18,661 nucleotides of DNA from a bacterium (GTDB lineage Bacteria > SZUA-182 > DTGQ01 > JAFGSM01), in assembly GCA_049472355.1 (NCBI GenBank), contig JBLIRP010000071.1, positions 1-18,661 of the forward strand, in the 5' to 3' direction. Below the pieces are notes generated by a model that saw only the letters and a program-made list of their open reading frames with translations, was not told where the DNA came from and made no database searches. Both the position numbers and the translations under genes were made by a program. Shown piece by piece: positions 1,334 to 18,523 of this stretch. How positions within the stretch are numbered: the first letter of the stretch is position 1; every line of letters begins with the position of its first letter.

Positions 1334-4300
1334 TTAGTAGTGGTTTATGTATTCCTTCCAGTAGAGTTCCTTCACGGTCCCCGATACAAAGCTGGGGGTG
1401 GAGGGCACGGCCTTCAGGCTGCTTTGCTCACCGCCCCCCAGGCCCGACACCCCGACCAGCACTGCGCTGGGGTCTCCCACGATGTCCACGCCGGTGACCT
1501 TCCCGTCACCCGCAAAGATGCTGAGAAACTGGGAACTGTTTGAAAACCCGCATTCCCCGAATGCGCCCAGCTTGTATACCACCAGGTAGCTCTTCCCGTG
1601 CTGGCACCCGACATCCACGGGCGGCACATACACCAGGAAGATGGTCTCGTACTGGGAGGTGTACTCGTTTTTGATGATCACGGGCGAGGCGTTTACCCTG
1701 GCCCGGGCCGGGAAGTACTCGCCCGTATTTGCATCCATGATGAGGTCGGTGAACAGGATCTTCTTCGATCCCACCACCTGGTCGCTGCTGTCCAGGTGAA
1801 GGAGGAACAGGCCGGACACGAAGGAGCACCCCTCGTAGTTGATGCTCGGGTCGTCATAGGTGCCGGATGCGATCACCATGGTGGTGCACTCGGCAGCCCC
1901 CTCTCCGATATGCAGCACCGCCGGGGAGTAGAAGAAGGGATGCCATACGCTGGCGTCGTAGATCTGGTCCATATGCCAATAGTACGGTCTATTCAACGTG
2001 TCCATGTGCCACACCCTCCCTGCGGTGTCCACCATGTAGGCGTCGGTGATAAATCCATACTGCTCGTAGCACACGGCGTCTGCCATTAAGCCGTGGTGCA
2101 CGATGGTGTAAGGTGCACCCAGGTTCTGGGAGAAGAGGAGTTTCCCGTTGTCATCGTCATCCTCGTCGAATCGTATGGCCATGAAGGTGATGCCTTCGGC
2201 GTCCGCGCTCGTTGGGTCGTCGTATCCGGAGCCCAAAAAGGCGGTGAATATGCTCTTCTTGTAGTCATAGATCTTGTAGGAGATCTGGCCGATGGCGGGG
2301 GTGGACCAGGATTCGCCGACGATCGGCTCATAGATGTTCCTCAGGTTCTTGTCCCGGGTATGCCAGAGCACCTTGAACGGCTTGCTCGCATTGTAGTCAT
2401 GGTCCCCCGGCGAGGGATGGGTGACATCCAGGGCGAAGTAGTTATAACCCCCGGGGCCCTCGCCGCAGACCAGAACGGTCCTCCACGTATCCTTGTCATC
2501 GTCTTCGAGCAGGACATCGTATGCCTTGGGTGATGCCGCCACCCCGAAGATATGTGCCAGGGGATCCACCGGCTGTCCGAGGTTGAGGTAAAGCTCCTTC
2601 ACCTTGGGGAGAAGGTCGGGCGGCACATAGGCGAATTCCTCCCTGCCGGTGAGAATGTCGAAGGCATGGAGCATGCCGTCGTTCGATCCGCAGTAGACGA
2701 GGGTCTTTCGACGCTCGTAGGTCTTCTCGAATACGTCGTGCCCGGGCATGGCCTCGGGATACAGGGGGGTGTAGGGAGGTCCCACCGAGACCGGGGTGCA
2801 GTTGGTCACGTCGAAAAGCCTCCAGGAGCGGGTCTTTCCGGCGATGAACTCGATGATCTCCAGGGTCTCAGCGGCGCTCAGTCCCAGGCCGAGCGCCAGG
2901 AGCTTAAGGGTGTTGGGCACCCCGGAGCTGTCGAAGAAGGGGACCAGGTTGTTGGAAGAGTCCGAGGTATAGATCTTCCGTTCGTTCCATTCCACGTGGT
3001 CTGCGTTCAGCATCTCTCCTGCGTCCCACAGTATCTGGTCCTTCGAGAGGTCATACGCCTTCAGGTGCCCTCTCCAGGAGGGGAACTCCGCTGAGCCCAG
3101 GAGCCCGATGTTCCCGATGAGGCGCCCCATCCCCCCTGAACCTGAGGTGGGTGACGATGTGGCGTAGTCACCTGCAGCAGCCTCGAAGATGATGTTCAGG
3201 AGTGCCTCCTCGAGCGCCTCCTGGGAGGTCGCATAGTAGGCATGCTCGGTGCCCCCCTTGATGGCGATCTCGTTGAGGGTGGTGCTCCCCGCGGTGTCGG
3301 CGCCGAACCCGACCATGTAGACCTTGACCCCGTAGTTTTTGTAAAGGTCCGCGGCAGCGTTCTTGGCGTATCCCGCCTCTTCCGAGGGGGAGGGCTCACC
3401 GTCCGTCACGAAGATGACGGCGTTTCTGCGGCACTCCAGGATGTCCTTCTTGTCGATCTCCGCAAGGAAGTATTCCTTGAAGTCGTTGTAATAGCCCGAC
3501 ACCACCGTGTCGTTGCGCAGGGTGGAACCGGTGGGGGTGGCTCCGATGGAAATGAGCCCCCCTTCATCCTGCGGCTGCATCCACTGGATGATCTCGTCGA
3601 CCTTCTGGCCCTGAACTTCCTTGTCCGCTGAAAGGGATATGGGCACCAGCACGATCCCGCCCCGGTACACCGCATAGGTGTCCCGGGCTCCCACCGGGTG
3701 CACGTCATCGTTCCACGAACCCGATACGCTCGAGTACTTGAAGTTTTTGCCGTCCATCCCATGGTAATAGAGGAATACATCGTTCGGGTCCACGTTGCCG
3801 CTGCACCCGTTGTTTAGGTCCTCGTCGCCGGTGGCGACGAATTCCTTGCCGTGGAACTTGGTGAAGTAGTAGATCGTATCATCGGTTTCCAACTGCTTCA
3901 GGTACTTGTAGTTGCTCCCCTTGTAATCCCATGTATACATCTTGCCGGTGTCGGGGTCTGCGAAGTCGCACTTTTTCCCGCAGAAGGTATGCCAGGCGTT
4001 GATCCGTTTCGCGCCCTCCTCTTTCTTGTCTTTCTTGCCCAACTTTCTCTCGTACTCCGAGCTGTCACCTCCCATCAGGAGGTACTCCACCCCGTTGAAC
4101 TCGAATACGTCAACCGGGCGGTGCTCGGGCTTGCCGCTGTTTGCGGGCTGATTGGGCTTGCCGTCCACGGTGTAGATTTTCTTGTCAAGCTCCTTCTTGC
4201 TGAAATACATTTTTTCATACAGCGGCGGGTCCGACCCCACCTTGTAGTAGGGGAAGTACCCCTTTATTTCGCTCGTCTTCCGGTAGTGGGTCTGCAGGAA

Positions 4301-4615
4301 GGACATGAGCCCGAAGTTCGCCAGGCCCCGGCAGTTGTTGAGCACGTCCTCGATGACCGTCTTGGCGATGAACAGGCGGCTGTCCTTGTGCGCCCCGTAC
4401 ACATGACCATCACTGTCGGGCCACGTCAACGCCTTCCCGTCGATGTCCCACTGCATACTCCCCGAGGTGTCCACGATGAACATGATGTTCGGCGGGACCA
4501 CCATGTCCTCGAGGGCCTTCAGGGGCTTCATCTTCGCATGAGAGGCGGATACGAAGAGGAGAACACCTGCAAGGCAGACGACGATCATCCATTGCCGGTT
4601 CTTTTTGTAAAACAT
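1334..4615 (-). CDS. pilY1: PilY1/PilC-family pilus tip adhesin B (vWA + beta-propeller), ~1093 aa
   Basis: Start moved to ATG 4615 (AGGAGGT RBS 5 nt upstream); signal peptide ending ASHA; MIDAS DTSGS...GATPT...VTDG; propeller motifs WRGHLKAY, VYCGSNDGMLHAF, EEFAYVP, YFALDVT, GESWSTP, GSGY; C-terminal YWKE. Confidence 0.92.
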   Translation of the reverse strand: MFYKKNRQWMIVVCLAGVLLFVSASHAKMKPLKALEDMVVPPNIMFIVDTSGSMQWDIDGKALTWPDSDGHVYGAHKDSRLFIAKTVIEDVLNNCRGLANFGLMSFLQTHYRKTSEIKGYFPYYKVGSDPPLYEKMYFSKKELDKKIYTVDGKPNQPANSGKPEHRPVDVFEFNGVEYLLMGGDSSEYERKLGKKDKKEEGAKRINAWHTFCGKKCDFADPDTGKMYTWDYKGSNYKYLKQLETDDTIYYFTKFHGKEFVATGDEDLNNGCSGNVDPNDVFLYYHGMDGKNFKYSSVSGSWNDDVHPVGARDTYAVYRGGIVLVPISLSADKEVQGQKVDEIIQWMQPQDEGGLISIGATPTGSTLRNDTVVSGYYNDFKEYFLAEIDKKDILECRRNAVIFVTDGEPSPSEEAGYAKNAAADLYKNYGVKVYMVGFGADTAGSTTLNEIAIKGGTEHAYYATSQEALEEALLNIIFEAAAGDYATSSPTSGSGGMGRLIGNIGLLGSAEFPSWRGHLKAYDLSKDQILWDAGEMLNADHVEWNERKIYTSDSSNNLVPFFDSSGVPNTLKLLALGLGLSAAETLEIIEFIAGKTRSWRLFDVTNCTPVSVGPPYTPLYPEAMPGHDVFEKTYERRKTLVYCGSNDGMLHAFDILTGREEFAYVPPDLLPKVKELYLNLGQPVDPLAHIFGVAASPKAYDVLLEDDDKDTWRTVLVCGEGPGGYNYFALDVTHPSPGDHDYNASKPFKVLWHTRDKNLRNIYEPIVGESWSTPAIGQISYKIYDYKKSIFTAFLGSGYDDPTSADAEGITFMAIRFDEDDDDNGKLLFSQNLGAPYTIVHHGLMADAVCYEQYGFITDAYMVDTAGRVWHMDTLNRPYYWHMDQIYDASVWHPFFYSPAVLHIGEGAAECTTMVIASGTYDDPSINYEGCSFVSGLFLLHLDSSDQVVGSKKILFTDLIMDANTGEYFPARARVNASPVIIKNEYTSQYETIFLVYVPPVDVGCQHGKSYLVVYKLGAFGECGFSNSSQFLSIFAGDGKVTGVDIVGDPSAVLVGVSGLGGGEQSSLKAVPSTPSFVSGTVKELYWKEYINHY

Positions 4616-4691
4616 GGCGCACCTCCTGTTATGTTCCGTTGACGTTGTTTTTCTTCCCGTACCTGTCATGCTGTATCCCGTGAGCCATCCA

Positions 4692-5267
4692 TCAGTTCCA
4701 GTCGATGTTGGCGACGGTCACGTTGATGTTGTCGGAGGTGATGTCCTTTCCCCCGTATGAGTGAACACTTCCGGGCTCCCATTCCACCGCTGCCTCAAGG
4801 ACCTTCGGCTCCCCGCTGCTTCCCATGCCCTCGGCAACGACCACCATGATGTTGTCAAGATTGGTGCTGTACCATTCGTTGACCGTATAGTTCGGGTCCC
4901 CGAATACAAAATCGTCGAAATTGTTCCTTACCTTTATGGTGTAGCGCATCCCCTGGAACTCCACGTCGGACATCCCGGGCAGCGTCACCTCCGGGTTCGA
5001 GGCGGTTGCGGTGCTGATATAGTCGTTCCAGTCCTCGATGGAGGTGCCGCGAAGGATGTTGATCCCCTGCTGGAGCGCGGCCTCGGCCGCATAGAATTTC
5101 TGTTTGATCACGCGGTAGTTGTGCGAGATCATGATGTCGGTGGTGGAAAGGTAGATGCCCGCCAGTCCCAGAACCGTCAGCATCACCATGACGACGAGCG
5201 CCGCAAGTATGGCGACACCTCGTTGGTTGCCAATGATCATGGCGTATTTCCGTGCCGGGCTTTGCAT
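4692..5267 (-). CDS. pilX: PilX-like minor pilin (cassette B)
   Basis: NQRG|VAILAAL class III signal lacking Glu5; STTDIMISHN...FYAAEAA PilX N-terminal motif; RBS GAGGT; immediately upstream of pilY1. Confidence 0.88.
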   Translation of the reverse strand: MQSPARKYAMIIGNQRGVAILAALVVMVMLTVLGLAGIYLSTTDIMISHNYRVIKQKFYAAEAALQQGINILRGTSIEDWNDYISTATASNPEVTLPGMSDVEFQGMRYTIKVRNNFDDFVFGDPNYTVNEWYSTNLDNIMVVVAEGMGSSGEPKVLEAAVEWEPGSVHSYGGKDITSDNINVTVANIDWN

Positions 5268-5276
5268 GGTGGCACC

Positions 5277-6257
5277 TCACTCTCTGTTTCTGACCTTGAC
5301 CATTGAGGTCATGGTCCTTCTCCGGAAGTGGTCCCCGTAATGGGGGTTGGTATACTCAGGCTCCTCTTTGGAGGTCCTGGCGACGATGCTTATCTGGACG
5401 TCGTTTCCCTGCGCCGTAACCTCGAGCGACTCGATGTCCTCGACTAAAGCCTCGAATTCCCAAATATTGCACTTCCTGGCGAGCACCGGGTGCCCCTTGT
5501 CATGATACGTGAACGTGGAATCGTTCTTGTCGTTGAATACCGCATAGGACACCACGTTGACGACCCCCACCTCCGTGCCTGCCCGGTATCCGCCCACGTT
5601 CACCAGCCCCTGACAACCGCCCCAGTAGGGATTGGTGTCGATGTACAGCCAACTGTTTGAAATGGAGACCACCTTGGCGTATTCCAGGTCGTCCACAGGG
5701 TAGCGCACCGTGCCGAACCCGATGTATATGATGTCCCCCTTATGGAAGCGGTCGGCGGTCTCTTCCACGGAGGTATTCAGCTTGATCCAAGTCTCACCGA
5801 ACGGTTCGCCATCTACAAGCTGTATGTCGGGATCAGAATCCGCGTACGTGAAGATGAGCATGTCGTCCCGCGGGTCGCACGCCCCCTGCCTGATGACCAT
5901 GTTGTCGGCCATGGCAGGGGTGTTGTAGGGTACTGTTGCCGCAAGATCGAATGGAAAGGATGATGTATAATTGGTCCACCACAAGGTGGACACAAAGGGG
6001 TGGAACACGGTGGTGCCCGAGCCCGTCTTGAATCCCGCCATCCTGATCTCGGATACCATCCGGTTCATGGCGAACCGGATGCCCTGGTTCATCTCGTTGA
6101 CCCTGGTCTGGATGTTATGGGACTTGTGGTGGCTGTTGCAGTAGGCATAAATCCCGCTCATCACCACAAGGGACATCACCAGGGCGATGATCAGCTCGAT
6201 GATGCTGAATCCCTTTGACCAGCGAAGGTCCGTTCTCCTGGTGCACTGGTGGTCCAT
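5277..6257 (-). CDS. pilW: PilW-like minor pilin (cassette B)
   Basis: KG|FSIIE prepilin site; QGIRFAMNRMVSEIRMAGF helix motif; C-terminal RRTMTSMVKVRN typical of PilW. Confidence 0.88.
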   Translation of the reverse strand: MDHQCTRRTDLRWSKGFSIIELIIALVMSLVVMSGIYAYCNSHHKSHNIQTRVNEMNQGIRFAMNRMVSEIRMAGFKTGSGTTVFHPFVSTLWWTNYTSSFPFDLAATVPYNTPAMADNMVIRQGACDPRDDMLIFTYADSDPDIQLVDGEPFGETWIKLNTSVEETADRFHKGDIIYIGFGTVRYPVDDLEYAKVVSISNSWLYIDTNPYWGGCQGLVNVGGYRAGTEVGVVNVVSYAVFNDKNDSTFTYHDKGHPVLARKCNIWEFEALVEDIESLEVTAQGNDVQISIVARTSKEEPEYTNPHYGDHFRRRTMTSMVKVRNRE

Positions 6258-6260
6258 GGC

Positions 6261-6701
6261 TTATGCCTCGTTTCGTATAATGGTTGTAAGGGCGATGTAG
6301 TGCCACCGGGTATCCTCCCATCCGACGATGACGGTCACCGTCTTCAGGCGGGCTGCAGGGGTGTCGTTCGCCACGTTCCACACCCGGATCAGCCTCGAGT
6401 CGGGTGAGTCATTGGCATGGTCCGGATTGGTGAACAAGGAGGGATTCTGCTTGATCTCGGTGCTTATGTCATTCTTGTTGTTATCCGTATCGGCAAGGTC
6501 CCCATCTTTATAGGTGAGTCGCTTCAGCTCCTCGAGCTTGTCCTCGGCAAGGTTTACCGCAAGGGTGGCATAGTTTGCCGCCTTGTTCCCCGCTATGGTG
6601 GCATAGTGGAGCCCGGCGATTCCCAGCAGGCCTACGGCCAGGAATACCATCGCCACCATCACCTCGATGATGGTAAACCCTGCGTGTCGTGTCATTGTCA
6701 T
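6261..6701 (-). CDS. pilV: PilV-like minor pilin (cassette B)
   Basis: AG|FTIIEVMVAMVFLAVGLLGIAGL; AVNLAEDKLEELK; KTVTVIVGW. Confidence 0.88.
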   Translation of the reverse strand: MTMTRHAGFTIIEVMVAMVFLAVGLLGIAGLHYATIAGNKAANYATLAVNLAEDKLEELKRLTYKDGDLADTDNNKNDISTEIKQNPSLFTNPDHANDSPDSRLIRVWNVANDTPAARLKTVTVIVGWEDTRWHYIALTTIIRNEA

Positions 6702-6711
6702 GTGCGTTCAC

Positions 6712-7212
6712 CTACCATGAGTTATGGACCCTTATAATGCCGGTGGTGTCGATTATCTCGATCCGCCGCTGGAGATCCTTTGAGTTTTTAAGATATATCT
6801 CTTCATCATCGGCAGTGCCGTCGGGATTGAAGCTGATCAGGAACGTGCCGTTGTCATTGGCTAAATTTCCAATGTAGGCGATATCCACCCCCTCCCTGAT
6901 CTGCCGGGAGGTCATCTCCGTATCCGTCACCCAATTTGCGGTGTCAAGGTCGTAGAATTCACCCTTATAGAAATCCGGATCGGGGTATTCTTCCAGGGTT
7001 AAGCTGACCCGGTACTGGGTGTTGAGGCTGATGGACTTGAAGCGCGCCCTCTGGAAGTCGTTGTGCAGGGCGGAGACCTGTGCATTGAGAAGGAAGCGGG
7101 GCATTACGCCCACTATGGAAGGAACCGCGAGGGTGGTGGCAACGGTGATAATCGACACCACGACCGCTACCTCGATGAGGGTCATGCCCCCAATCCAGCG
7201 TTTTCTCATCAT
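6712..7212 (-). CDS. fimU: FimU/FimT (GspH-like) minor pilin (cassette B)
   Basis: GG|MTLIE prepilin site; LHNDFQRARFKSISLN; ISFNPDG; GGAGG RBS 7 nt upstream; first gene of the cassette. Confidence 0.82.
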   Translation of the reverse strand: MMRKRWIGGMTLIEVAVVVSIITVATTLAVPSIVGVMPRFLLNAQVSALHNDFQRARFKSISLNTQYRVSLTLEEYPDPDFYKGEFYDLDTANWVTDTEMTSRQIREGVDIAYIGNLANDNGTFLISFNPDGTADDEEIYLKNSKDLQRRIEIIDTTGIIRVHNSW

Positions 7213-7280: not shown

Positions 7281-7519
7281 GCAATTCTCATTGTGAACGT
7301 AGCAAAGGATGGGGGGCAGGCATGTTTGCTTCGCTAGACGGGAAGGCTTTTTTAATTTTCTAAGGCTCGCTTCGCTACATTGCGCAAACTCGCTTCGCTC
7401 GGACATGCGCAATGTTATACGCTGCGCTTCGCCAAGAAAATTTAGAAAAAGCCTCCCTATATCGCTCCGCAAACATACCTGCCCCCCTATTGAACATAGA
7501 GGGTCAAAATGAGAATTGC
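7281..7519. repeat. 239-bp non-coding MITE/REP-like element with nested inverted repeats
   Basis: Terminal IRs 7281-7296 and 7504-7519 (15/16 match, GCAATTCTCATTkTGA); internal imperfect arms 7311-7366 and 7431-7487; central perfect 10-bp stem ACATTGCGCA 7377-7386 / 7406-7415; CTCGCTTCGCT repeated at 7366-7376 and 7389-7399. Confidence 0.8.
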
Positions 7520-7616: not shown

Positions 7617-10600
7617 TTATATGGTTTTGTCTTTCCAGGAGGTGAGGGTGGCCCTGTTTTGATCAGGGTTGACGTCCAGTGCGGCCACCTCCTCGTTGGT
7701 GGTGGTGACAAAGAGGGTGTCCTTGTGCAGGACCGGCTTCGACCCCTGGCCGCTTCCCACCTGCACCGCAGCGATGCTGTAAACCACGCCCTCCTCGTCC
7801 GTGACCTTGTCCCTCTCGTCGAAGACCCCGTCTTCGTTCAGGTCGAAGACCGGGGTGATGGGGGGGAGTCCGGTGTCGTATTCCAAGGCGTAGACCCAGG
7901 TGTCCCCGTTTCCCGCGCAGATGTCCTGATCGGGGATGAAGGTGGTGAAGTACACGATCCCCGCAACCACCAGGGGCTGTTCGAGCACCCGCTCGCTGCC
8001 CACAAGATCGGGTGATGAGGCGTCGAGGCTGAGCGCCCAGGATCTGCGTGATTCGTTTCCTCCTTCCACGATTTTGACGGGCCGGGTCTCGCCGGTTTCG
8101 CCGTCTCGGTATTCCGTGAGGGTGGAGCGCAGCCGCACCAGGTCACCCAGGGAATAGACAGGGGGAGCGGACAGGGTGTCCTTCAGGCCGAAGAGGTACT
8201 GCTGGCTCATGGATGTCTTGTCCGCCTGGGTCTCGTATCGTCCGGTGCCGAAGTATACCCAGATGCCTCCCTCATCCACGCCATAGGCGAAGGTGGCCTG
8301 CGCCCTGACGGGGTGTGCGCGGGTGAGGGTGTCAAAACCGAAAAGCCTCGTGACACGGGGGAGTTCCCCCTTGCCGATGGAGGTGATGCGGTACATGGTC
8401 CCATACAGGTTCCCGGCATAGAGGTGATCCCCCATGGTATCCGCATCAAGATCGGCCACCAGTGGCGAGGCAAGGGCGTCGTTCTTCAAGGTCGTTTCGG
8501 AGATCTTGATCCGGTTGATGTCCGTTGATCCGTTCTTCCACAAGGGGGCCTTGTTATGGGCCGCAATGCCGTAAAGATACGCCTCCTTTTCCCGCTGATC
8601 GGAGGAGGCGTATCCGGAACCGAAAAAGATCCCCCATGCGGCGCCGTTTCCGTCGGAAACCCGTTCGATGCTCGGGTCCGCCCAGGTCTGACCCAGCTCG
8701 GCATCGGAGAATTCCCACAGGTACCGCGCGCCGCTGGTCACCCCGAAGGGCCGGCCATGGGTGATGTCGAGGGCAAAGTAGGATTCCCCTCCTTCTCTCA
8801 GACCGCACACCAGCAGGGTCATCCAGGCGGTTCCGGTGTGGATGTCTCCGACGCGGGGCGAGCCGTCCACGAAGTACTGGTGGCAGTAGTGATTGTCGCA
8901 TAGGTCGTACACCGGATCGTCCGCCCGATTGAGCTTATCATGTGAGCTGTGGGGCACGAACGCCCACAGCTCCCTTCCGTCCGAGAAATGAAATGCGTGC
9001 AGGCTGCCGTCGTTTGCACCGACGTATACCACGGGATCGCGGATGATCCCCCGCTTCCATGCCGTGTATCCGTCGAAGGGGTAGTAGAATGGGGGATCCC
9101 CCACGATGATGGGGGTGGACCGGATGATATCCCCGATGTCCTTGCACAGCCAGTGATCATGGGGGAGCACCGAATCGGTGTAGGGTATGACCCTCTCCTC
9201 GTCCGACGGATCGATGGTGAACACAGTGCGGTAGGCGGGCATGGCCTCGCTGGCCCGCCAGACCACCCTATCCCATCCGCCGGTGGTCTGATCGAAGGTG
9301 GTTGCCACCAGGTCGCCGGACCAGTCGGTGGCATCGAATTCAGCCATGATGACGATGTCACCGTGATCCGAGGAGGTAGTGGGCACGGGGGCTGCCCCAT
9401 GGAATATCTGTCCCTTGATCCGTTCGGTGATGGCGGCCAGCGCCTCCTTGAGCGCCTGCTCGCTGTATGCCAGAAAGGGCTGCCCGACCCCGTTTACCTC
9501 GTCGTGCAGGGCATAGAGGTCGTCCGATGCATGCCCGCGCTGGTTGCTGATACCCGCCATGATCTGGATCTGGGTGGCGTCGTCGATGCCGAAACCCACG
9601 GCGATGGGGGTCACCCCTTCATCGCACAGGTCGTTGGTGCGCTGCCTGACCGTGTCATTGGTCGAATCGACGTTTCCCAGGCCATCGGTGATCTCGATCA
9701 AGAATTTCGGCTGACACCGGATGTCCACGTAGTACTCGCCGTCACCCTCCCGGTCCCTTTTCCGGCCGGTATAATATTTTTCCGCCGCCAGGATGGAGGG
9801 GGCAAAGGGGGTGGCCCCTCCGATCTCCGTCTTCGTACTTATGCTCTGCTGGAGCAGCAACTGATGATTCGGGTCATTGGGCCTGCACCCCACGTGGATC
9901 TTGGTGTAGTCGATACCTGCGGTATACCCGGCATGCTCGTTTGAGCGCCATGTGCCGAATCCCCACGCAATGCTTTTGTCCTCGACGAGCTCGCTGATCA
10001 CGGAGCGGGCGATCGCAATCCTGGTCTGCTGCGTGGGGACGCTCCATGCAGGGATGTCGGACCATGCCGCATATGCCTCGGTAGTGGTCCTGTTCGAGAT
10101 GTTTCTATTTGACTTGGAAAACCGGGGCGGATCGTCCATGGCCTCCCCCCGTATGGTCAGGGAGGTAGGTCCACTCTTTTTCTCATCCACGACAAACTCG
10201 ATGTATGCCCCCGCAATGTCGGCCTCCGGGGGTATGGTGACGTTCTGGAAGCGGATGCCCACGGTCTGGTCGGAGCCGTCACGCACGAGCTCGAGGTCGC
10301 TGCTTGAGCGTGAAACCTTCCCGTTTGCCGCCTCTTCGGCATCGTCATCGCCGTGAGAGACCCTGACGTCCAGGACGTGGGTGCCGTCATGGATATACTC
10401 AACGTGCAGGAGCGGGGCCGAACCCGATTCGCCGTCATAGGATTCGGCAGTCCTGCACCCGGTTCCCGTGATGATGAATGCCATTGCATTCCCAGAGCAC
10501 CATCCGGGCCTGTCCACAATCTCCCGGACAATATGCGAGAGGTCGGGGGTGCGGGGATTCTCACCGGGGGCGGCAATGGCCACCTTCGTTCCCATGCTCC

Positions 10601-12176
10601 CGGACAGGTCGAGCAGGATCATGATGGCGGGATTCACCAGGTTCTCCGTGTACACCGGTACGTGGCCGCAGGCCACAGATTCGGGGATCGGCTGGATGGT
10701 GACGCTCAGGTCGATTTCCAGGGGGCTGTTGGGCGCATCGGGGTCCGAGATGATGATGGTTGCCTCGTATGTTCCGGCATCGAGGGATTCGGTATGGTAG
10801 CTCACCACGACCGGGGAGGACCCCCCTGTCGTCAGGGTCCCGCTCGCCGGTGATACGGACACCCAGTCGGCATCGTCCGTGATGGTGAAGTCCATGGCTG
10901 CGGAGCCGCTGTTGGTGATCGTGAAGCCGTCGCCTGCCGCATCGTTTCCTTCATAACAAACGGCCCCGAGGCTGGCTTTGTCCGCAACGATGAAGGGAAA
11001 CGACGTATCGTCGTATTCGATGTGGAGCAGGGGCGCCTTCCCCTGGGCATTGTCACGGGATGCCGCAACCCTTTTTCCCGATCCGCTGATAATGAATACC
11101 ATGTCATTTCCCGCCTCCCATCCCGGTCGTCCCGTGATCTCCCGGACGATGGCGCTGAGATCGGGGGTGGAGTGACGCTCACCCACGCTGCTCCATGCAG
11201 GTACGTTATTCCAGGAGATCGAGGCCGAGGTGGTGGACCTGCGGGTGATATCGCCGCTCGTGTTCGAAAAGGTCCCTGCATCGTCTGTGGATTCGGCGGC
11301 GATGGTCAGATTGGTGGCCTCCGAGTTGGTCCCCGCCGCCTCGAAACTGATATAGGCGGTGGTGATCCATGCGCCGCGGGGCACGTTGATGCCCTGGAAG
11401 CGGATGCCCACGGTCTGGTCGGTCTGCTTACGGATGAGATCCAGATCGTCGTTGTGAAGCCTCATGTCCCCGTTCGTCTTTTCCTCCGCATCATCGCTGT
11501 TCTGCGCCACCCTGATATCCAGGGCAGCCGATTCGTATTCGAGGTGGAGGAGGGGGCCCGATTTATTGTTACCTTTATCATAGGACTTGGCAACCCTCTT
11601 GCCTGAGCCGGTGATGATGATCGCAAGGGCGTTTCCGGCGGTCCACCCATCCCGGTCGACGATCTCCTGGATGATGGGGCTGAGATCCGGGGTCTGGTGC
11701 TTCTTATTTTTCTGGTCCCAGGCAGGCACGCCCTGCCAGGACACGACTTCGGAGGTGCGGGCTCGGCCGGAGATAGTGTGATTCCCCGATTCGGAGAAGG
11801 CAGCAGCGTTATCGGATGCCTCCCCCTTGAAATACAGGGTGGTGTACACGCTGCTCGTCTCGTCCGTTTTGAATTCTATGTAGGCATTGGTGATGGCAGC
11901 GCCCCTGGGCACGGTAACGTCCCTGAAACGGATACCCACGATCTGGTCCGAACTTTCTTGAATCATTTCCAGGGCCGAGCTCCCGCAATCCACGACACCG
12001 TCGCTCACGCGCTCCTCGGCATCGTCCTCTGACGAACTCACCCTGATATCGAGGGATTCCGGCCATGCACGGGGACTCAGGACACACAGGAGGAAGGCGG
12101 CGGCAATGGCACACATGGCCGCCTTCCATGGAAGGTGCCTCCCGTATGCCGCCGAGGGGGCATGTCGCTCGATCAT
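7617..12176 (-). CDS. pilY1: PilY1/PilC-family pilus tip adhesin A (two ~170-aa repeats + BACON-like domain + vWA with insert + beta-propeller), ~1519 aa
   Basis: Probable start ATG 12176 (AAGGA 10 nt upstream, followed by a signal-peptide-like segment); MIDAS DLSGS...GATP...ITDG; propeller motifs WSGDL, IGDIIRSTP, VYVGANDGSLHAF, ELWAFVP, YFVDGSP, YFALDIT, LGQTWADP, VYFGTGRY; C-terminal SWKD. Confidence 0.93.
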   Translation of the reverse strand: MIERHAPSAAYGRHLPWKAAMCAIAAAFLLCVLSPRAWPESLDIRVSSSEDDAEERVSDGVVDCGSSALEMIQESSDQIVGIRFRDVTVPRGAAITNAYIEFKTDETSSVYTTLYFKGEASDNAAAFSESGNHTISGRARTSEVVSWQGVPAWDQKNKKHQTPDLSPIIQEIVDRDGWTAGNALAIIITGSGKRVAKSYDKGNNKSGPLLHLEYESAALDIRVAQNSDDAEEKTNGDMRLHNDDLDLIRKQTDQTVGIRFQGINVPRGAWITTAYISFEAAGTNSEATNLTIAAESTDDAGTFSNTSGDITRRSTTSASISWNNVPAWSSVGERHSTPDLSAIVREITGRPGWEAGNDMVFIISGSGKRVAASRDNAQGKAPLLHIEYDDTSFPFIVADKASLGAVCYEGNDAAGDGFTITNSGSAAMDFTITDDADWVSVSPASGTLTTGGSSPVVVSYHTESLDAGTYEATIIISDPDAPNSPLEIDLSVTIQPIPESVACGHVPVYTENLVNPAIMILLDLSGSMGTKVAIAAPGENPRTPDLSHIVREIVDRPGWCSGNAMAFIITGTGCRTAESYDGESGSAPLLHVEYIHDGTHVLDVRVSHGDDDAEEAANGKVSRSSSDLELVRDGSDQTVGIRFQNVTIPPEADIAGAYIEFVVDEKKSGPTSLTIRGEAMDDPPRFSKSNRNISNRTTTEAYAAWSDIPAWSVPTQQTRIAIARSVISELVEDKSIAWGFGTWRSNEHAGYTAGIDYTKIHVGCRPNDPNHQLLLQQSISTKTEIGGATPFAPSILAAEKYYTGRKRDREGDGEYYVDIRCQPKFLIEITDGLGNVDSTNDTVRQRTNDLCDEGVTPIAVGFGIDDATQIQIMAGISNQRGHASDDLYALHDEVNGVGQPFLAYSEQALKEALAAITERIKGQIFHGAAPVPTTSSDHGDIVIMAEFDATDWSGDLVATTFDQTTGGWDRVVWRASEAMPAYRTVFTIDPSDEERVIPYTDSVLPHDHWLCKDIGDIIRSTPIIVGDPPFYYPFDGYTAWKRGIIRDPVVYVGANDGSLHAFHFSDGRELWAFVPHSSHDKLNRADDPVYDLCDNHYCHQYFVDGSPRVGDIHTGTAWMTLLVCGLREGGESYFALDITHGRPFGVTSGARYLWEFSDAELGQTWADPSIERVSDGNGAAWGIFFGSGYASSDQREKEAYLYGIAAHNKAPLWKNGSTDINRIKISETTLKNDALASPLVADLDADTMGDHLYAGNLYGTMYRITSIGKGELPRVTRLFGFDTLTRAHPVRAQATFAYGVDEGGIWVYFGTGRYETQADKTSMSQQYLFGLKDTLSAPPVYSLGDLVRLRSTLTEYRDGETGETRPVKIVEGGNESRRSWALSLDASSPDLVGSERVLEQPLVVAGIVYFTTFIPDQDICAGNGDTWVYALEYDTGLPPITPVFDLNEDGVFDERDKVTDEEGVVYSIAAVQVGSGQGSKPVLHKDTLFVTTTNEEVAALDVNPDQNRATLTSWKDKTI
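10044..12053 (-). repeat. Intragenic ~170-aa domain repeat in pilY1-A: copy 1 12053-11535, copy 2 11522-11013, permuted copy 3 10550-10044
   Basis: All three copies share LD(I/V)RV..DDAEE, DQxVGIRF, AYIxF, PAW, TPDLS, GW..GN and PLLHxEY. Confidence 0.9.
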
Positions 12177-12249
12177 GATGTTCATTTCCTTGAAAATCCT
12201 CTTTGGGGTATTTTCATGCCTCTTTGTGAGCCGAAGTCTCATCTGCGTT

Positions 12250-12284
12250 TCACTTCTACATTCTGCATTCTGCATTCGATATTC
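12250..12284. repeat. Five tandem degenerate heptamers
   Basis: TCACTTC TACATTC TGCATTC TGCATTC GATATTC, upstream of the probable pilY1-A start. Confidence 0.7.
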
Positions 12285-12367
12285 GCAGTTTCATCCGGCT
12301 CATGTGCCTTTCACCACAAGATCAATACCCTAATTACTCAATATGTTACGGAAAAGGGGAGTGTCCG

Positions 12368-12862
12368 CTAATACCCCACCTTGTAAATCTTGTACAGGGT
12401 TACCTCGATCTCCTGCTCGCCCCCGGCATTGCTGGTCACCTGGTAGTTGAACCGCAGGTATTCCTTTCCGCTGCCGGGCGCCACGCTGTTCGAGAGGTAT
12501 TGGATCCTGTTCCAGTAGGGGGTCCCTGCAAGGGTCCCGTCCTGGGTGCCGGGGGGGAAGTCCTCGTTGGTGACCCCGTCCCCGCCGCCGCCGAAGTTCT
12601 TGACCACGTCATCATCCAGGGAGGTGTTCACCGGACGGGGCGGGGTCGCCCGGTTGTTGAGCCAGGGGGCGGCCTCCTTCCAGCCGCTGTCGGTTACGTA
12701 GAAGTCCCTCATGTACTCCTTTTCGTTCCCTGCGATCTGGATCTCGATATCGGTGGTCATGAGGCTGAAGGTGCCCATGAGGGTAAGGAGCATAAGGACC
12801 AGCATGGCGATGATAAAGGCGGCGCCCTCCTCGCGGCGGAGTATATCGAACAGTGCCTTCAT
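12368..12862 (-). CDS. pilX: PilX-like minor pilin (cassette A)
   Basis: Start moved to ATG 12862 (G-rich RBS, 1 nt after the pilV stop); EEG|AAFIIAM lacking Glu5; TTDIEIQIAGNEK...FYVTDSG motif. Confidence 0.88.
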   Translation of the reverse strand: MKALFDILRREEGAAFIIAMLVLMLLTLMGTFSLMTTDIEIQIAGNEKEYMRDFYVTDSGWKEAAPWLNNRATPPRPVNTSLDDDVVKNFGGGGDGVTNEDFPPGTQDGTLAGTPYWNRIQYLSNSVAPGSGKEYLRFNYQVTSNAGGEQEIEVTLYKIYKVGY

Positions 12863-12863
12863 A

Positions 12864-13322
12864 TCATTCCCCCCTCGTTCGCACCATGTCGAATGCAGTG
12901 CGTTTGTCCCGGGTGCCGCCATGCCAGGCGACGATGACCCGCACGGTCTTGGTCCCGGCTACCGGCCGGTCCTCCGCCACGTTCCAGTAGAGGTTGTAGC
13001 GCTCGCCCACCCCTCCCCCCCTAAGGTTCAAGCGCATGCCGTCAGCGGTGGAGACGGCTGCATCATCAAGCCCTGCGAGGCCGTCGCCGTCATGGTCCGT
13101 GAGGGAGGCATAGTCGATGAGCATGATCTCCTCCATCTGTTTGGAGGCAAGCTGCGTTGCGGTGCTCAGGCGTATGGACACGGCATTTCCCTTGATGGTA
13201 TTGATGAGCAGGACGCTCGCCCCGAGGATTCCGATGGCAAAGATGCCGATGGAAATGAGCACCTCGAGGAGGCTGAATCCCTTTTGGAACCTTGGTTCAA
13301 CGCTACGTACCGACATCATCAC
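12864..13322 (-). CDS. pilV: PilV-like minor pilin (cassette A)
   Basis: KG|FSLLEVLISIGIFAIGILG; ATQLASKQMEEI; KTVRVIVAW; ATGA overlap with the pilW stop. Confidence 0.88.
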   Translation of the reverse strand: MMMSVRSVEPRFQKGFSLLEVLISIGIFAIGILGASVLLINTIKGNAVSIRLSTATQLASKQMEEIMLIDYASLTDHDGDGLAGLDDAAVSTADGMRLNLRGGGVGERYNLYWNVAEDRPVAGTKTVRVIVAWHGGTRDKRTAFDMVRTRGE

Positions 13323-14161
13323 CCCTCCCTGAGCGCCATGTTTCTCAAGCGGACCACGGTCTCCACGATCCGCATGCGCCGGAAGTCGTTTTCGCTGTCG
13401 GCGTCGCCCGCAGGGCGGATCACCCTGCCTCCCACCACGTAGGTCTTGCGATTGGTATATCCCTCATCGGGTTTGCTCGATTCGACGAGGAGCCATACAC
13501 GCACCGCCCTGATGTCATCCAGGTCCACGGCGATCCCGGTATTCTCACCGGCAGGGATGGCGTCGTCATCGTCGATGTTGCCGTCGTCATTGGTGTCCAG
13601 GTCGTACCAGGTGCCGTCCTTGTCGATCGCCCAGATCACGTGGGGACCATCCCTGTCCAGGATGCCGTCCCCGTTGCTGTCAAAGGCATAGGCGAATCCC
13701 AGGGACTCCACGTGTTCTGCAACCGGTGCGAAGTGCTCGTTCTGGGTGGCCTTCCTGCCCAGCTTTTGTATGCCGTCAGCCGGGGTGTAAAGTCCGTAGG
13801 TGATATACTCGTTATAATCCGTGAGCCCCTCGTCTTCGTCGAGGTCCAGGGTGAAGGTGATGCGGCTGGATTCTGCTGCAACGATTCCCGCCCCCGCCTT
13901 GCCTGTTGGATCATACCCGGCCATCCTGATCTCCTTTACCATGAGATTGACGGCTGCGCGCATGTTCTGTTGCATCTCTGCAACCTGGTCCTGAACGGAG
14001 TACGACTTGTTCTGGGCAATGAAGAAGTCGAAGATGGCTGCGGCCATGACCGCGCTGATGAACAGGGCGAGGAGAAGCTCCACCAGCGTGAATCCGCCGG
14101 CCGTGAGGCGATCGCATTTCGCGGGGGCAATTCCCCTTGCGGCCCCCTGCATCGAATCCAT
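13319..14161 (-). CDS. pilW: PilW-like minor pilin (cassette A)
   Basis: Probable start at 14161 (TAATG overlap with the fimU stop); GG|FTLVE; MQQNMRAAVNLMVKEIRMAGYDP; IRAVRVWLL; VRLRN C-terminus. Confidence 0.88.
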   Translation of the reverse strand: MDSMQGAARGIAPAKCDRLTAGGFTLVELLLALFISAVMAAAIFDFFIAQNKSYSVQDQVAEMQQNMRAAVNLMVKEIRMAGYDPTGKAGAGIVAAESSRITFTLDLDEDEGLTDYNEYITYGLYTPADGIQKLGRKATQNEHFAPVAEHVESLGFAYAFDSNGDGILDRDGPHVIWAIDKDGTWYDLDTNDDGNIDDDDAIPAGENTGIAVDLDDIRAVRVWLLVESSKPDEGYTNRKTYVVGGRVIRPAGDADSENDFRRMRIVETVVRLRNMALREG

Positions 14162-14739
14162 TATTGAATCCGTATCCTTCCCGCCTTGTGCACACTGATC
14201 CATTTCTTTGTCTCGCGATTGTTGGTGAGGTACACGGAGCCCATGCCCATGCCCGCGACACCCGTCGGGCTCACCGTGAGCCCCCGGGAATTGAAGGCAA
14301 TGGAAGGCCTGCCTGCATCGTTTTCGGTAAAGGTCACCCCGTCTCCCCCTCCCTGTGAGGAATCAAGTTCGACACCGCTCTTATAATCGGCAAACCTCAC
14401 CGATGCGAGGATGGTTTCGCCTGCGTCATACTCGTAATCCCGGTCCTTATCCTCGTACACCACGTAATCGTAAGGGATGCCTCCCACGGACTGGTTGAAG
14501 GTGACGGTGCACAGCGTGTTGTTTTTCACCGCCGTCATCTTTGCCCGCTGAAGGTGTGACATCATATCCCTGGCCGCGGCCTTCAAACGGTAATTGGCCA
14601 TCATGGAACTGATATTCGGGAATGCAATGGCGGACATGATACTGATGATGGCAAGTACGATTCCCATCTCAACAAGGGTGAATCCTGAATAACGGATGCG
14701 CGGTTTCGCTGCACCTCGTGCCAAGATCACAGGGCGCAT
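14161..14739 (-). CDS. fimU: FimU/FimT (GspH-like) minor pilin (cassette A)
   Basis: ATG 14739 preceded by GGAAAGGAAGG; SG|FTLVE; YRLKAAARDMMSHLQRAKMTAVKNN; IAFNSRG; GRIRI C-terminus. Confidence 0.85.
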   Translation of the reverse strand: MRPVILARGAAKPRIRYSGFTLVEMGIVLAIISIMSAIAFPNISSMMANYRLKAAARDMMSHLQRAKMTAVKNNTLCTVTFNQSVGGIPYDYVVYEDKDRDYEYDAGETILASVRFADYKSGVELDSSQGGGDGVTFTENDAGRPSIAFNSRGLTVSPTGVAGMGMGSVYLTNNRETKKWISVHKAGRIRIQ

Positions 14740-14891
14740 ATCCTTCCTTTCCCTACAGACGATCAATGCTCAAGGGGTACAAACGAGGACGGGTCCACCT
14801 ATGCATCGGGCAAAAAGGTGCGGAATCAAACGATGGGGGCGCACAATGAACAGCGTCATGCACGCCGGATGCCGTGAACACTACTCTATAT

Positions 14892-15099: not shown

Positions 15100-15573
15100 C
15101 TATCGGCGGGGTATCTCGTACATCATGGCGATTTCCTCGCAATCGGGGAACTTGGAGCACTTGAGGCAATCGGACCATATCTTGTGAGGAAGTTGGGATT
15201 TGTCGATCTCAATAAATCCCTGCGAGGAAAAGAAGTCCTTTGTGTAGGTGAGACAGAAGACCTTTTTCACCTCCAGGTCAACTGCCTCCTTGAGACAGGC
15301 CTGAACGAGCCGAGTGCCGATCCCCTGCTTCCAGCGGTCCTCGGTGACGGCAAGTGAACGGATCTCCGCCAGGTCCTCCCATACCAGATGCAGGGCGCAG
15401 ATGCCAAGGATGGTGAGGGGGCCTTCGCCTGCCTTTTCTTCGTATATGAAAAAATCCCTTATGCGGTCGTAGATCTCGGAGAGTGAAAGGGGGAGGAGAA
15501 GTCCCCGGTGGGCATACTCATTGATAAGGTTTCGTATGACATGCGCATCGCAGATACGGGCCTTTCTGATCAT
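15100..15573 (-). CDS. argA: Short GNAT-type amino-acid N-acetyltransferase (N-acetylglutamate synthase-like)
   Basis: MIRKA...ALHLVWEDLAEIRSLAV...QGIGTRLV...VFCLTY...LPHKIWSDCLKCSKFPDCEE, the pattern of the short ArgA family. Start at 15573 by ATGA overlap with the gamma subunit stop. Confidence 0.8.
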   Translation of the reverse strand: MIRKARICDAHVIRNLINEYAHRGLLLPLSLSEIYDRIRDFFIYEEKAGEGPLTILGICALHLVWEDLAEIRSLAVTEDRWKQGIGTRLVQACLKEAVDLEVKKVFCLTYTKDFFSSQGFIEIDKSQLPHKIWSDCLKCSKFPDCEEIAMMYEIPRR

Positions 15574-16118
15574 GAGAGACACAGGGCCATTTTACGGCCT
15601 GCCCGGATGGCCGTGCGGTTCATCTCCATGAGGGCGGAATCCCCCTTTCCGGCAAAGGATTCCTCCATCGCCCGCTCCAGGCTTTCCCGGGAGACGACTC
15701 CGCTCTTGGTGCAAAAGGCGGAAAGGGCGATGATGTTCGCCACCTTGATGGAGCCGAGCCGGTCTGCCTCATCCGTAATCGGGATGGCCAGCACATCGAT
15801 GTCCTCCCGAGGGGAATCGGGGTTGATCAGGGAGGAATTCACCAGGAGGAATCCGCCGGGTTTCACCCGGGGGCCGAAACGCTCCATGGATGGCTGGTTC
15901 ATGACGATGCATGCCCATGGATGGGCCACGATGGGCGAACCGATGGCCTGATCGGCGATGATCACCGTGCAGTTTGCGGTGCCGCCGCGCATTTCGGCGC
16001 CGTAGGAGGGAAACCAGGTCACCTCCCTGTTGTCGAGCATGCCGGCCATGGCGAGGAGCTTCCCCATAAGCATGATGCCCTGTCCGCCGAATCCCGCCAT
16101 GATCACCTCGCGATTCAT
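15570..16118 (-). CDS. 2-oxoacid:ferredoxin oxidoreductase gamma subunit
   Basis: AGFGGQG, WFPSYGAEMRGGTANCTV, VANII, NRTAIRAG motifs; ATGA overlap with the beta subunit stop. Confidence 0.93.
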   Translation of the reverse strand: MNREVIMAGFGGQGIMLMGKLLAMAGMLDNREVTWFPSYGAEMRGGTANCTVIIADQAIGSPIVAHPWACIVMNQPSMERFGPRVKPGGFLLVNSSLINPDSPREDIDVLAIPITDEADRLGSIKVANIIALSAFCTKSGVVSRESLERAMEESFAGKGDSALMEMNRTAIRAGRKMALCLS

Positions 16119-16882
16119 GAATCACCTCCCCCTTTTTCGGAAATGTCCTTGAACACCCCCAAGGGGAAGATCTCCTGCATGGACTCCCTGATCCAGCGGT
16201 TTGCCTCCAGAGGAGACATCCCCCAGTTGGTGGGGCATGTGGCGAGGACCTCCACGAGGCTGAATCCCCTGTTTTCGAGCTGGACCTGGAAGGCCTTCCT
16301 GATGGCCCGGGCAGCCTTTCGAATCCTGGCCGGGGTGTCCACGGCAACCCGCTCGATGTACGCGGTCCCCTCCAGGGTGGCGAGCATCTCGCAGACCCTG
16401 AGCGGATAGCCGTCCGTGGAGGCCTTCCTTCCGAAGGGGGTTGTCTTGGTCTTCTGACCGGGCAGGGTGGTAGGGGCCATCTGTCCTCCGGTCATGCCGT
16501 AAACGGCGTTATTGACAAAGATGAAGGTGACGTTTTCACCCCGGTTCGCTGCGTGCACGATCTCTGCGGTGCCGATGGAGGCGAGGTCCCCGTCCCCCTG
16601 GTAGCTGAATACAACGAGGTCGGGACGGGCACGCTTGATGCCGGTGCAGGCGGCGGGCGGACGTCCGTGGGCAACCTCCAGCACGTCGCAGGCAAAATAA
16701 TCGTAGGCAAAAACGGCGCATCCCACCGGGGCGATACCGATGGTCCGGTCCAGGATATTGTAATGGTCGATCGCCTCAGCCACCAGGCGGTGAATGATAC
16801 CGTGGTGACAGCCGGGACAAAACCGGAAGGGAACCGGCTTGAGCGCGGACGGCCTCACGAATATGGCACGGGATGTGTTCAC
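16115..16882 (-). CDS. 2-oxoacid:ferredoxin oxidoreductase beta (TPP-binding) subunit, Vor-type
   Basis: FCPGC, PVGC, HGR, TPP motif QGDGD...NNAVYGMTGGQMAPTT, CPTNW. Confidence 0.93.
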   Translation of the reverse strand: MNTSRAIFVRPSALKPVPFRFCPGCHHGIIHRLVAEAIDHYNILDRTIGIAPVGCAVFAYDYFACDVLEVAHGRPPAACTGIKRARPDLVVFSYQGDGDLASIGTAEIVHAANRGENVTFIFVNNAVYGMTGGQMAPTTLPGQKTKTTPFGRKASTDGYPLRVCEMLATLEGTAYIERVAVDTPARIRKAARAIRKAFQVQLENRGFSLVEVLATCPTNWGMSPLEANRWIRESMQEIFPLGVFKDISEKGGGDS

Positions 16883-16892
16883 TGCACTGTGA

Positions 16893-17975: not shown

Positions 17976-18007
17976 TGTTCACATTCCCCGTCAAAAAAAA
18001 CGCCTCC

Positions 18008-18035: not shown

Positions 18036-18055
18036 GATGTAAAAAGTCATCGACA

Positions 18056-18260: not shown

Positions 18261-18282
18261 AAAGTCTGGATCGGGGCATGCG

Positions 18283-18507: not shown

Positions 18508-18523
18508 AATCAGGTTTCCTCCG

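What the first reader, a model, noticed from the sequence alone, without database searches (positions are those of the whole stretch)
10044..10610. Circularly permuted repeat domain inserted into the MIDAS loop of the PilY1-A vWA domain
Seen: repeat copies 1 and 2 run LDIRV...DDAEE...VGIRF...PAW-linker-TPDLS...PLLHxEY. The third copy has the halves swapped: TPDLS...PLLHVEY (10550-10395), a short IHDGTHV linker, then LDVRV...IPAW (10373-10044). It sits between the MIDAS motif DLSGS (10610-10596) and the TRIAIAR helix. Inference: the fragment was cut out of a tandem array across a repeat junction. This puts the new termini at one former surface loop, so the domain can fold as an insert next to the metal/ligand site. 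Established: the PilY1 vWA domain is implicated in adhesion and surface sensing. I do not know of a described permuted insert at this position, but cannot confirm novelty without a search.
Basis: partly seen in the sequence, partly recalled or inferred. Interest (0 to 1): 0.85.

Follow-up and report, generated by a model that had tools for sequence, protein, structure and literature searches.

The report
Flipped binding module in pilus adhesin
A pilus-tip adhesin of sediment bacteria carries a sugar-binding-like module twice in normal order and once circularly permuted inside its metal-binding vWA domain; a second adhesin family has the same module unpermuted in the same loop, which makes a natural experiment on what the rearrangement does.

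Summary
ORF 12275-7617 (-) is a PilY1. Two canonical ~175-aa modules are followed by a third, circularly permuted copy inserted between the vWA DxSxS motif and helix 1. It is no assembly error: contigs of two other runs bridge junctions with 0 differences. It is old and conserved: 97 of 120 top hits share it, and MIDAS is intact in 96 of 96. The module is a CBM96/DNRLRE-like beta-sandwich by fold (Z 15.1, 12.6) but not a CBM96 member. The native termini already pair, and a distant second PilY1 family inserts the same module unpermuted in the same loop (116 proteins). Coevolution places the new ends at the pole of the conserved acidic/Arg cluster, so the permutation probably turns that face toward the MIDAS (inferred). 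Seven relatives have lost the insert cleanly. Ten literature searches found no description. The scan noted the permuted copy once before on another genome (e1-950436); the canonical twin and the orientation argument are not in that note's listing. Verdict: new variant of known kinds; ligand untested.

The parts
7617..12176 (-). pilY1-A coding sequence (open frame extends to 12275; probable start Met34 at 12176)
   Evidence: PF05567 92.4 bits vs cut-off 28.1; starts of relatives
11535..12053 (-). Module copy 1, canonical N-C order (res 75-247), CBM96/DNRLRE-like beta-sandwich
   Evidence: model res 1-179 vs 8WAB: Z 15.1, rmsd 3.7, 163 aligned
11013..11522 (-). Module copy 2, canonical order (res 252-421), 47% identical to copy 1
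10686..10988 (-). BACON/Ig-like spacer domain (about res 430-530)
   Evidence: PF19190, E 1.4e-7
10590..10634 (-). vWA part 1: strand beta1 and MIDAS DxSxS (D556, S558, S560; motif at 10610-10596)
   Evidence: invariant in 96 of 96
10554..10589 (-). Outgoing stem strand and linker (res 563-574) from the host hairpin into the insert
   Evidence: strand at model res 25-27; insert-less relatives close this hairpin directly
10395..10553 (-). Permuted copy, first part = C-half of the module (res 575-627)
   Evidence: 65% to copy 1, 60% to copy 2
10374..10394 (-). 7-aa linker joining the native C-terminal strand to the native N-terminal strand as a beta-hairpin (res 628-634)
   Evidence: strand-turn-strand; R78-L242, D76-H244 couplings
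10044..10373 (-). Permuted copy, second part = N-half of the module (res 635-744)
   Evidence: 49% to copy 1, 46% to copy 2
10026..10043 (-). Return stem (res 745-750) into vWA helix 1
9405..10025 (-). vWA part 2 (res 751-957) with MIDAS T822 (9812-9810) and D864 (9686-9684)
   Evidence: (vWA folds, Z up to 21.1)
7620..9398 (-). PilY1 beta-propeller region (res 960-1552)
   Evidence: PF05567, res 1047-1299
12368..14766 (-). Upstream minor pilin genes: FimU/FimT-like 14164-14766, PilW-like 13319-14203, PilV-like 12864-13322, PilX-like 12368-12922
   Evidence: prepilin/PilV models; PilX assigned from position and N-terminal pattern, no family hit

Best explanation
This is a type IVa pilus tip adhesin (PilY1) of a family found mostly in Desulfobacterota. 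In the family's ancestor, a ~175-aa CBM96/DNRLRE-like beta-sandwich was cut from a tandem of copy-1-like repeats, starting at the strand-helix segment TPDL and ending at the PAW tryptophan. It was placed at the tip of the beta-hairpin that follows the MIDAS DxSxS motif. The old ends are joined by a 7-8 residue hairpin, so it refolds as the same domain (sequence shown; fold predicted). The cut moves the attachment point from the native-termini pole to the opposite pole, which carries the conserved E87/D101/E103/D138/E139/R227 cluster (copy-1 numbering) and corresponds by position to the CBM96 ligand groove. The permutation therefore turns the presumed binding face toward the MIDAS, forming an arm or lid that makes a composite metal-dependent binding site (inferred). 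The two N-terminal copies would add avidity. The face is acidic, so the ligand is more likely bound through divalent cations (Ca/Mg-bridged anionic polysaccharide, protein or mineral surface) than by CBM96-type lysines and arginines (inferred). Permutation is not required for insertion, and the insert is dispensable for the vWA fold.
For: Sequence order and identities. Conservation in 97 of 120 hits and 39 of 46 genome loci. MIDAS D/S/S/T/D invariant in 96 of 96. Model of vWA plus insert: pLDDT 94.3, pTM 0.79, versus pTM 0.67 for the tandem pair, which suggests a more fixed inter-domain pose. Fold match of the canonical copy to a chondroitin-sulfate CBM (8WAB, Z 15.1) and CBM96 (7VBO, Z 12.6). 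Coevolution on 515 canonical copies (Meff 391): first and last strands pair (78-242, 76-244), and the break loop couples to 236/239 and via 134-138 to the acidic cluster. Contact-graph path to that cluster is 10-23 units from the break against 37-48 from the native termini. The permuted copy is the best conserved of the three among orthologues (C-half 0.64 vs 0.56/0.55; N-half 0.51 vs 0.46/0.44) and keeps D85, E87, R116, R171 and R227 at 0.99-1.00. Arms flanking the MIDAS are known in the pilus adhesins PilB and RrgA (PMC8179133, passages).
Against: No ligand or metal binding was tested. Both fold searches of the vWA+insert model listed vWA domains and no CBM96-like match for the insert. Sequence similarity to CBM96 is negligible (1 of 46 relatives at E 0.095), and the same fold occurs in TGF-beta prodomains (Z 8.4-10.6), so carbohydrate binding is a fold-level inference. 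Only five positions are specifically conserved in the permuted copy; three (153, 157, 158) lie away from the presumed MIDAS-facing pole. Seven relatives lack the insert.
Confidence: 0.55

Rival explanations
1. Historical accident. A junction-spanning fragment happened to land in a tolerant, hypervariable vWA loop. It acts as an independent third binding module, and its orientation relative to the MIDAS has no special role.
For: This loop takes many unrelated inserts: none in 7 family members, other 100-170 aa Cys-rich segments in P0151, P0157 and P0181, and 14-133 aa segments in 21 of 30 family-2 loci. The canonical orientation works at the same site. Few residues are specific to the permuted copy.
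Against: The permuted copy is more conserved than its free siblings. It is kept when the N-terminal copies are replaced by another domain (L048, L050, P0138, P0165). pTM suggests a fixed pose.
Confidence: 0.25
2. Mechanical or regulatory role. The insert is a Ca2+-stabilised structural lid that shields the MIDAS or couples pulling force to the beta1-alpha1 loop (surface sensing), and it does not itself bind an external ligand.
For: The conserved face is acidic, about 8 acidic to 1 basic residue in res 82-108, unlike the basic CBM96 groove (PMC9971899, section 7). The fold is shared with TGF-beta prodomains. The PilY1 vWA has been linked to surface signalling in P. aeruginosa (PMC13190605, passage).
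Against: The same residues are equally or more conserved in free canonical copies of large multi-repeat proteins that have no vWA, which points to an intrinsic binding function.
Confidence: 0.17
3. The halves do not form one permuted domain but complement halves of other copies (domain swapping within or between PilY1 molecules).
For: The copies are 46-65% identical, so swapping is possible in principle; no model of the whole N-terminal region was made.
Against: The isolated vWA+insert folds with pLDDT of at least 84 in every 10-residue block of the insert, and the linker forms a hairpin. Permuted inserts persist in proteins with no canonical copy (L015, L048, L050).
Confidence: 0.02
4. Assembly chimera between repeats.
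For: Metagenome assembly with three related repeats.
Against: Repeats are only 56-63% identical in DNA. Contigs of other runs bridge the junctions. 96 other proteins share the order, and so does the closed chromosome of Desulfosediminicola flagellatus (L021).
Confidence: 0.01

Closest known systems
PilY1/PilC type IVa pilus tip adhesins with an N-terminal vWA (P. aeruginosa and Legionella PilY1; M. xanthus PilY1.3 and clades 1.4b-1.7)
   Same: C-terminal PF05567 propeller, vWA with MIDAS, gene downstream of minor pilins; variable N-terminal modules (PMC13190605, passages and section 9 part 1; PMC8179133, passages).
   Different: No CBM96/DNRLRE-like module, insertion or permutation is mentioned in PMC13190605 main text (0 hits for 'permut', 'CBM', 'DNRLRE', 'insert'). 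The InterPro architecture list in PMC8179133's supplements has no DNRLRE/CBM96 term, but it lists accessions only.
CBM96 (7VBO, alginate-binding) and the chondroitin-sulfate CBM 8WAB (family name CBM100 is recalled); DNRLRE domain NF033679
   Same: Same beta-sandwich in canonical order (Z 12.6 and 15.1); ESM Atlas neighbours at 0.95; weak NF033679 hits in 7 of 46 relatives.
   Different: No Pfam/NCBIfam family reaches E 0.1 for the window copies scanned alone. The groove-equivalent segment is acidic, not basic. The known examples sit on polysaccharide-degrading enzymes, not pili, and are not permuted.
MIDAS-flanking arms of pilus adhesins (S. sanguinis PilB, S. pneumoniae RrgA; PitA, SpaC and Mfa5 are top fold hits)
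   Same: Insertions on the MIDAS face of a tip-adhesin vWA (PMC8179133 passages; Z 19.1-20.9).
   Different: Here the arm is a whole mobile domain of traceable origin, present permuted in one family and canonical in another.
Inserted and circularly permuted domains (RNA polymerase insertional domains, PDZ permutants; duplication-truncation model)
   Same: Co-occurrence of insertion and permutation is documented (PMC13114784 section 3; PMC13552848 passages).
   Different: Neither main text names PilY1, vWA or CBM. Here the unpermuted parents sit in the same polypeptide and an independent canonical insertion at the same loop provides a control.

Membership tests
PilY1/PilC | C-terminal PilY1 beta-propeller (PF05567) above the curated cut-off | tested here: met
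   92.4 bits vs 28.1
PilY1/PilC | Encoded with type IV minor pilins | tested here: met
   Three adjacent upstream ORFs hit prepilin models (two above the TIGR02532 cut-off); the fourth is PilX-like by pattern only
PilY1/PilC | Located at the pilus tip and needed for adhesion or motility | not testable with these tools
   needs experiment
vWA domain with MIDAS | DxSxS ... T ... D | tested here: met
   D556, S558, S560, T822, D864 each invariant in 96 of 96 aligned proteins
vWA domain with MIDAS | vWA fold despite the interruption | tested here: met
   model matches vWA domains at Z up to 21.1, rmsd 2.2, 184 aligned; Pfam VWA alone stays just below cut-off, 22.8 vs 23.8 bits
vWA domain with MIDAS | Binds Mg/Mn/Ca | not testable with these tools
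   needs experiment
CBM96 (PF24517) | Profile match above cut-off | tested here: not met
   0 of 3 window copies at E<=0.1; 1 of 46 aligned canonical copies at E 0.095; no PDB sequence hit to 7VBO with the profile
CBM96 (PF24517) | Beta-sandwich of the 7VBO type | tested here: met
   canonical copy 1: Z 12.6, rmsd 3.4, 152 aligned; the permuted copy itself was not matched directly
CBM96 (PF24517) | Basic groove (K10, K22, K25, K27, K31, R36, Y159) that binds alginate | tested here: not met
   by positional proxy, not residue-level alignment: domain positions 10-36 hold on average 7.9 acidic and 0.8 basic residues in permuted copies (vs PMC9971899 section 7)
CBM96 (PF24517) | Binds alginate or another polyanion | not testable with these tools
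   needs experiment
DNRLRE domain (NF033679) | Profile match | tested here: inconclusive
   7 of 46 relatives at E<=0.1, best 1.4e-4; window copy 1 none
Circular permutant | Both halves complete and in swapped order in one chain | tested here: met
Circular permutant | Native termini adjacent and bridged by a short linker | tested here: met
   antiparallel couplings 78-242 and 76-244; hairpin in model; linker 7-8 aa in 75 of 88
Circular permutant | 3D superposition on the parent fold | tested here: inconclusive
   confident model with matching secondary structure; coordinates unavailable for CE-CP
Permutation by duplication-truncation | C-half derived from the upstream repeat and N-half from the downstream repeat of the present array | tested here: not met
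   N-half is closer to copy 1 in 61 and to copy 2 in 27 of 89; a weak tree groups it with copy 1. An ancestral copy1-copy1 tandem remains possible.

The most novel reading that the evidence does not exclude
Two distant PilY1 lineages independently recruited the same uncatalogued CBM96-like module into the MIDAS-proximal loop in opposite orientations. Circular permutation acts as a natural orientation switch that docks the module's acidic face over the MIDAS, building a composite metal-dependent lectin-like site, perhaps force-gated, at the pilus tip of sediment bacteria; the canonical form displays the face outward.
Probability: 0.3. Interest if true: 0.75.

Novelty: new variant of a known kind. 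Interest (0 to 1): 0.52.

Why it matters
What natural circular permutation is for is usually untestable, because the unpermuted control is missing. Here three natural states exist at one vWA loop of one protein class: permuted insert, canonical insert and no insert. The unpermuted parents sit in the same chain, and named isolates carry two of the states (Desulfosediminicola flagellatus permuted, Desulfospira joergensenii insert-less). It also points to a concrete candidate binding module for PilY1 N-termini, whose ligands are mostly unknown, in sediment bacteria. PilY1 is reported as a conserved, expressed adhesin in some syntrophic sulfate reducers (PMC10553843, passage); whether those belong to these families was not tested. 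The module itself has hundreds of members and no Pfam model in the copy searched.

Tried and rejected
BLASTP self-comparison returned only the diagonal; replaced by Smith-Waterman with shuffles. PDB sequence searches with copy 2, the insert and a 46-sequence profile gave only chance hits. Fold searches of the vWA+insert model were filled by vWA domains and showed no match for the insert; this is not evidence against its fold. An AU test of family 1 plus family 2 did not run, because 9 of 33 intended rows lacked the propeller anchor and only one outgroup row remained. Independence of the two insertions therefore rests on different order, different host sub-site, the long branch between families and insert-less family-2 members. 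The N-half tree of module copies is poorly resolved (113 columns, 18 of 87 branches starred). Run X1 had almost no contig cover over the insert; a hole proves nothing. Rejected: assembly chimera; recent duplication; nested folding of copies 1-2 (copy 1 aligns as one unit, model res 1-179); permutation as a requirement for insertion; CBM96 membership; a conserved disulfide in the insert (C593 is not conserved). No complex prediction was run. Literature: 10 searches. PilY1 plus 'circular permutation' gave 1 paper, PilY1 plus 'circularly permuted' gave 2, and DNRLRE plus pilus gave 2; all were seen as listings only and none concerns this by title or abstract start. The CIRPIN supplement could not be read, and the insertion-survey tables were cut and use ECOD ids, so either could hold this pair unnamed.

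Full report
Observation. The window holds two minor-pilin/pilY1 clusters on the minus strand. The finding lies in ORF 12275-7617 (1552 aa as listed), which has a PilY1 propeller (92.4 bits, cut-off 28.1), a BACON/Ig domain and a weak vWA hit. Copies 1 and 2 are 47% identical. The third copy starts with the C-half (res 575-627; 65% and 60% to copies 1 and 2) and continues after a 7-aa linker with the N-half (res 635-744; 49% and 46%). Scores are 179-258 against shuffle maxima of 41-51. DNA identity is 56-63% and GC3 is like the rest of the gene, so the event is old.

Artefact check. Of 4 runs laid, a contig of X5 bridges all three junctions (9952-11043) and one of X3 bridges two (9952-10450), both without differences. 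A shallow RNA-library contig of X15 crosses the hairpin linker; X1 has almost no cover there. Eight runs from five studies hold at least half of the sampled words; those with a readable label are marine sediment or mangrove metagenomes.

Family 1. Of the best 120 of 1400 hits to the vWA+insert region, 97 (including the window's own protein) are PilY1-type with C-half, N-half, vWA order; the MIDAS segment was detected before the insert in 96 of them. The other 23 are large multi-repeat proteins with only canonical copies. Of 46 genome loci, 39 have the permuted insert (two split by frame breaks inside or next to it), 6 have none and 1 is truncated. Named ones are almost all Desulfobacterota, including a closed chromosome. 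In the window's own small phylum, 6 of 20 genomes match, 5 of them in its family, and its proteins nest among Desulfobacterota sequences; transfer is likely but was not tested. The five MIDAS residues are invariant in 96 of 96 aligned proteins. Insert-less members close the loop with a short hairpin of about 10-14 residues. On a 50-row tree without the insert columns, the 7 insert-less rows sit inside insert-bearing clades and need 2 changes. With that root the insert is ancestral to the family and was later lost, or lost and regained. A search of 50% representatives with the vWA part alone gave 73 proteins; none had a canonical-order insert in this family, and three distant ones carry other inserts at the site.

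Fold. Both models are confident: vWA+insert pLDDT 94.3, pTM 0.79; copies 1-2 pLDDT 94.3, pTM 0.67. Secondary structure agrees at 47/53 and 92/110 aligned positions with copy 1 and at 54/62 and 89/111 with copy 2, and the linker is a strand-turn-strand. The canonical copy matches a chondroitin-sulfate CBM (8WAB, Z 15.1, rmsd 3.7, 163 aligned) and CBM96 (7VBO, Z 12.6), then TGF-beta-family prodomains. The host matches vWA domains including the pilus adhesins PitA, Mfa5, SpaC and PilB. By sequence the module is outside the CBM96 model and only marginally near DNRLRE (7 of 46); the ESM Atlas lists CBM96 clusters at 0.95. I could not superpose coordinates, and the insert was not matched directly by either fold search.

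Is permutation needed for insertion? No. Coevolution over 515 canonical copies shows the first and last strands as antiparallel neighbours (78-242, 76-244), so the native form already has the close termini that inserted domains typically have (median 14.3 A; PMC13114784, passage). A scan of 401 genomes of the phylum of G020 found 11 with the module. Six of them carry 7 pilY1 genes, in loci with minor pilin genes, in which the module lies in canonical order just after the DxSxS motif or its degenerate equivalent (5 of the 7 pass the PF05567 cut-off). Among the best 120 hits to one of these, 116 are such PilY1s: 115 have the canonical copy between DxSxS and helix 1, and one has it at the same place but lacks my motif anchor (the query selects for this). 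The family-2 scaffold mostly lacks the module: 6 of its 30 best loci have it, 21 do not, and 3 lacked the anchor. Families 1 and 2 form separate, fully supported groups on a 24-row propeller tree. In family 2 the module sits inside a small subdomain of the loop rather than on a bare hairpin, so the loop is the same but the sub-site differs. Two independent insertions are the simplest reading.

What the permutation changes. The break falls in the loop at res 187-193 (copy-1 numbering), which couples to 236/239, while its flanking strand pairs with 130-137. The conserved cluster E87, D101, E103, D138, E139, R227 is tied together by couplings 87-103, 103-138, 138-230, 139-228 and 87-229. In a contact graph, these residues are 10-23 units from the break ends and 37-48 from the native termini (rough path lengths, not distances). 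CBM96 binds alginate through residues 10-36 and 159 (PMC9971899, section 7), which by position are this same pole. So the permuted insert is tethered by its presumed binding pole next to the MIDAS, and the canonical insert by the opposite pole. This is inference. The pole is acidic here (about 8 acidic, 1 basic), so cation-mediated binding is more likely than CBM96-type polyanion binding. The permuted copy is the most conserved of the three and persists where the N-terminal copies have been replaced. Against a tight interface, only five positions are specific to it.

Origin. The order is that of a tandem junction, and the linker lengthened from 4 to 7-8 residues. Both halves lean to copy 1, with a small margin over unrelated copies (N-half 0.45 vs 0.43; C-half 0.56-0.57 vs 0.52). 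An ancestral tandem of copy-1-like repeats is favoured weakly; the present copy1/copy2 junction is not the demonstrable donor.

Known and new. Modular PilY1 N-termini and vWA domains are known (PMC13190605, passages and section 9 part 1), as are arms around the MIDAS of pilus adhesins (PMC8179133, passages and supplement search) and permuted inserted domains (PMC13114784 section 3; PMC13552848 passages). Ten searches of the open library found no account of this module in PilY1, permuted or not; subscription papers and two supplements were not visible. The scan noted the permuted insert once before in another genome (e1-950436), looked up after my own reading was formed; it agrees and is not independent evidence.

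Verdict. A real, conserved and apparently undescribed variant of known kinds. Confidence in the structural description is about 0.9, and in the MIDAS-facing binding-arm mechanism about 0.55. Interest 0.52, mainly because permuted, canonical and absent states at one loop make the purpose of a natural permutation testable.

Noticed in passing
window 12185-12316: A ~130-bp element with 68 BLAST hits in the own genome and very high contig depth overlaps the 5' extension of the pilY1-A frame; the real start is probably 12176.
   Followed up: partly
window 7311-7487 and 18086-18136: A palindromic non-coding element between the two pilin clusters and near the right end; 6 hits each in the genome.
   Followed up: partly
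window 1334-7212 (-): A second minor-pilin cluster with pilY1-B (1111 aa). Its vWA has only a short loop after DxSxS but appears to carry a long insertion further on; no copy of the module.
   Followed up: no
G000:C13:29565-31007: A third PilY1-like propeller in the own genome.
   Followed up: no
L043-L050, P0138, P0139, P0165, P0180: A family-1 subclade has replaced the N-terminal copies by a different ~200-aa domain (YIEAE motif; CBM6/35-like from recall); both insert-bearing and insert-less members occur in it.
   Followed up: partly
L028 and L096: Neighbouring pairs of pilY1 genes of the same family: family 1 in L028, family 2 in L096, the latter with a degenerate DxSxS in one copy.
   Followed up: no
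L023, L035, L038, L041: Family-1 genes broken into several frames in MAGs; sequencing error or decay not distinguished.
   Followed up: no
L071 857-11489: Three adjacent large proteins on a Sinorhizobium megaplasmid carry canonical copies with repeated cadherin-like and phosphoesterase-like parts (labels from recall); none is annotated in the record's table.
   Followed up: no
P0151, P0157, P0181; L103-L128: The post-DxSxS loop of PilY1 vWA domains is hypervariable, with unrelated, often Cys-containing segments of 14 to about 170 aa.
   Followed up: partly
family-2 inserts (P0304-P0419): Canonical inserts keep D85, E87, D101 and R227 but have lost E103, Q111, D138 and E139 (0.02-0.12 vs 0.72-0.81 in permuted copies), suggesting a different ligand or metal site.
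   Followed up: no
window 15100-18594 (-): An N-acetyltransferase (NF005840 above cut-off) and a ferredoxin plus 2-oxoacid oxidoreductase-like gene set (recalled label) flank the pilus locus.
   Followed up: no
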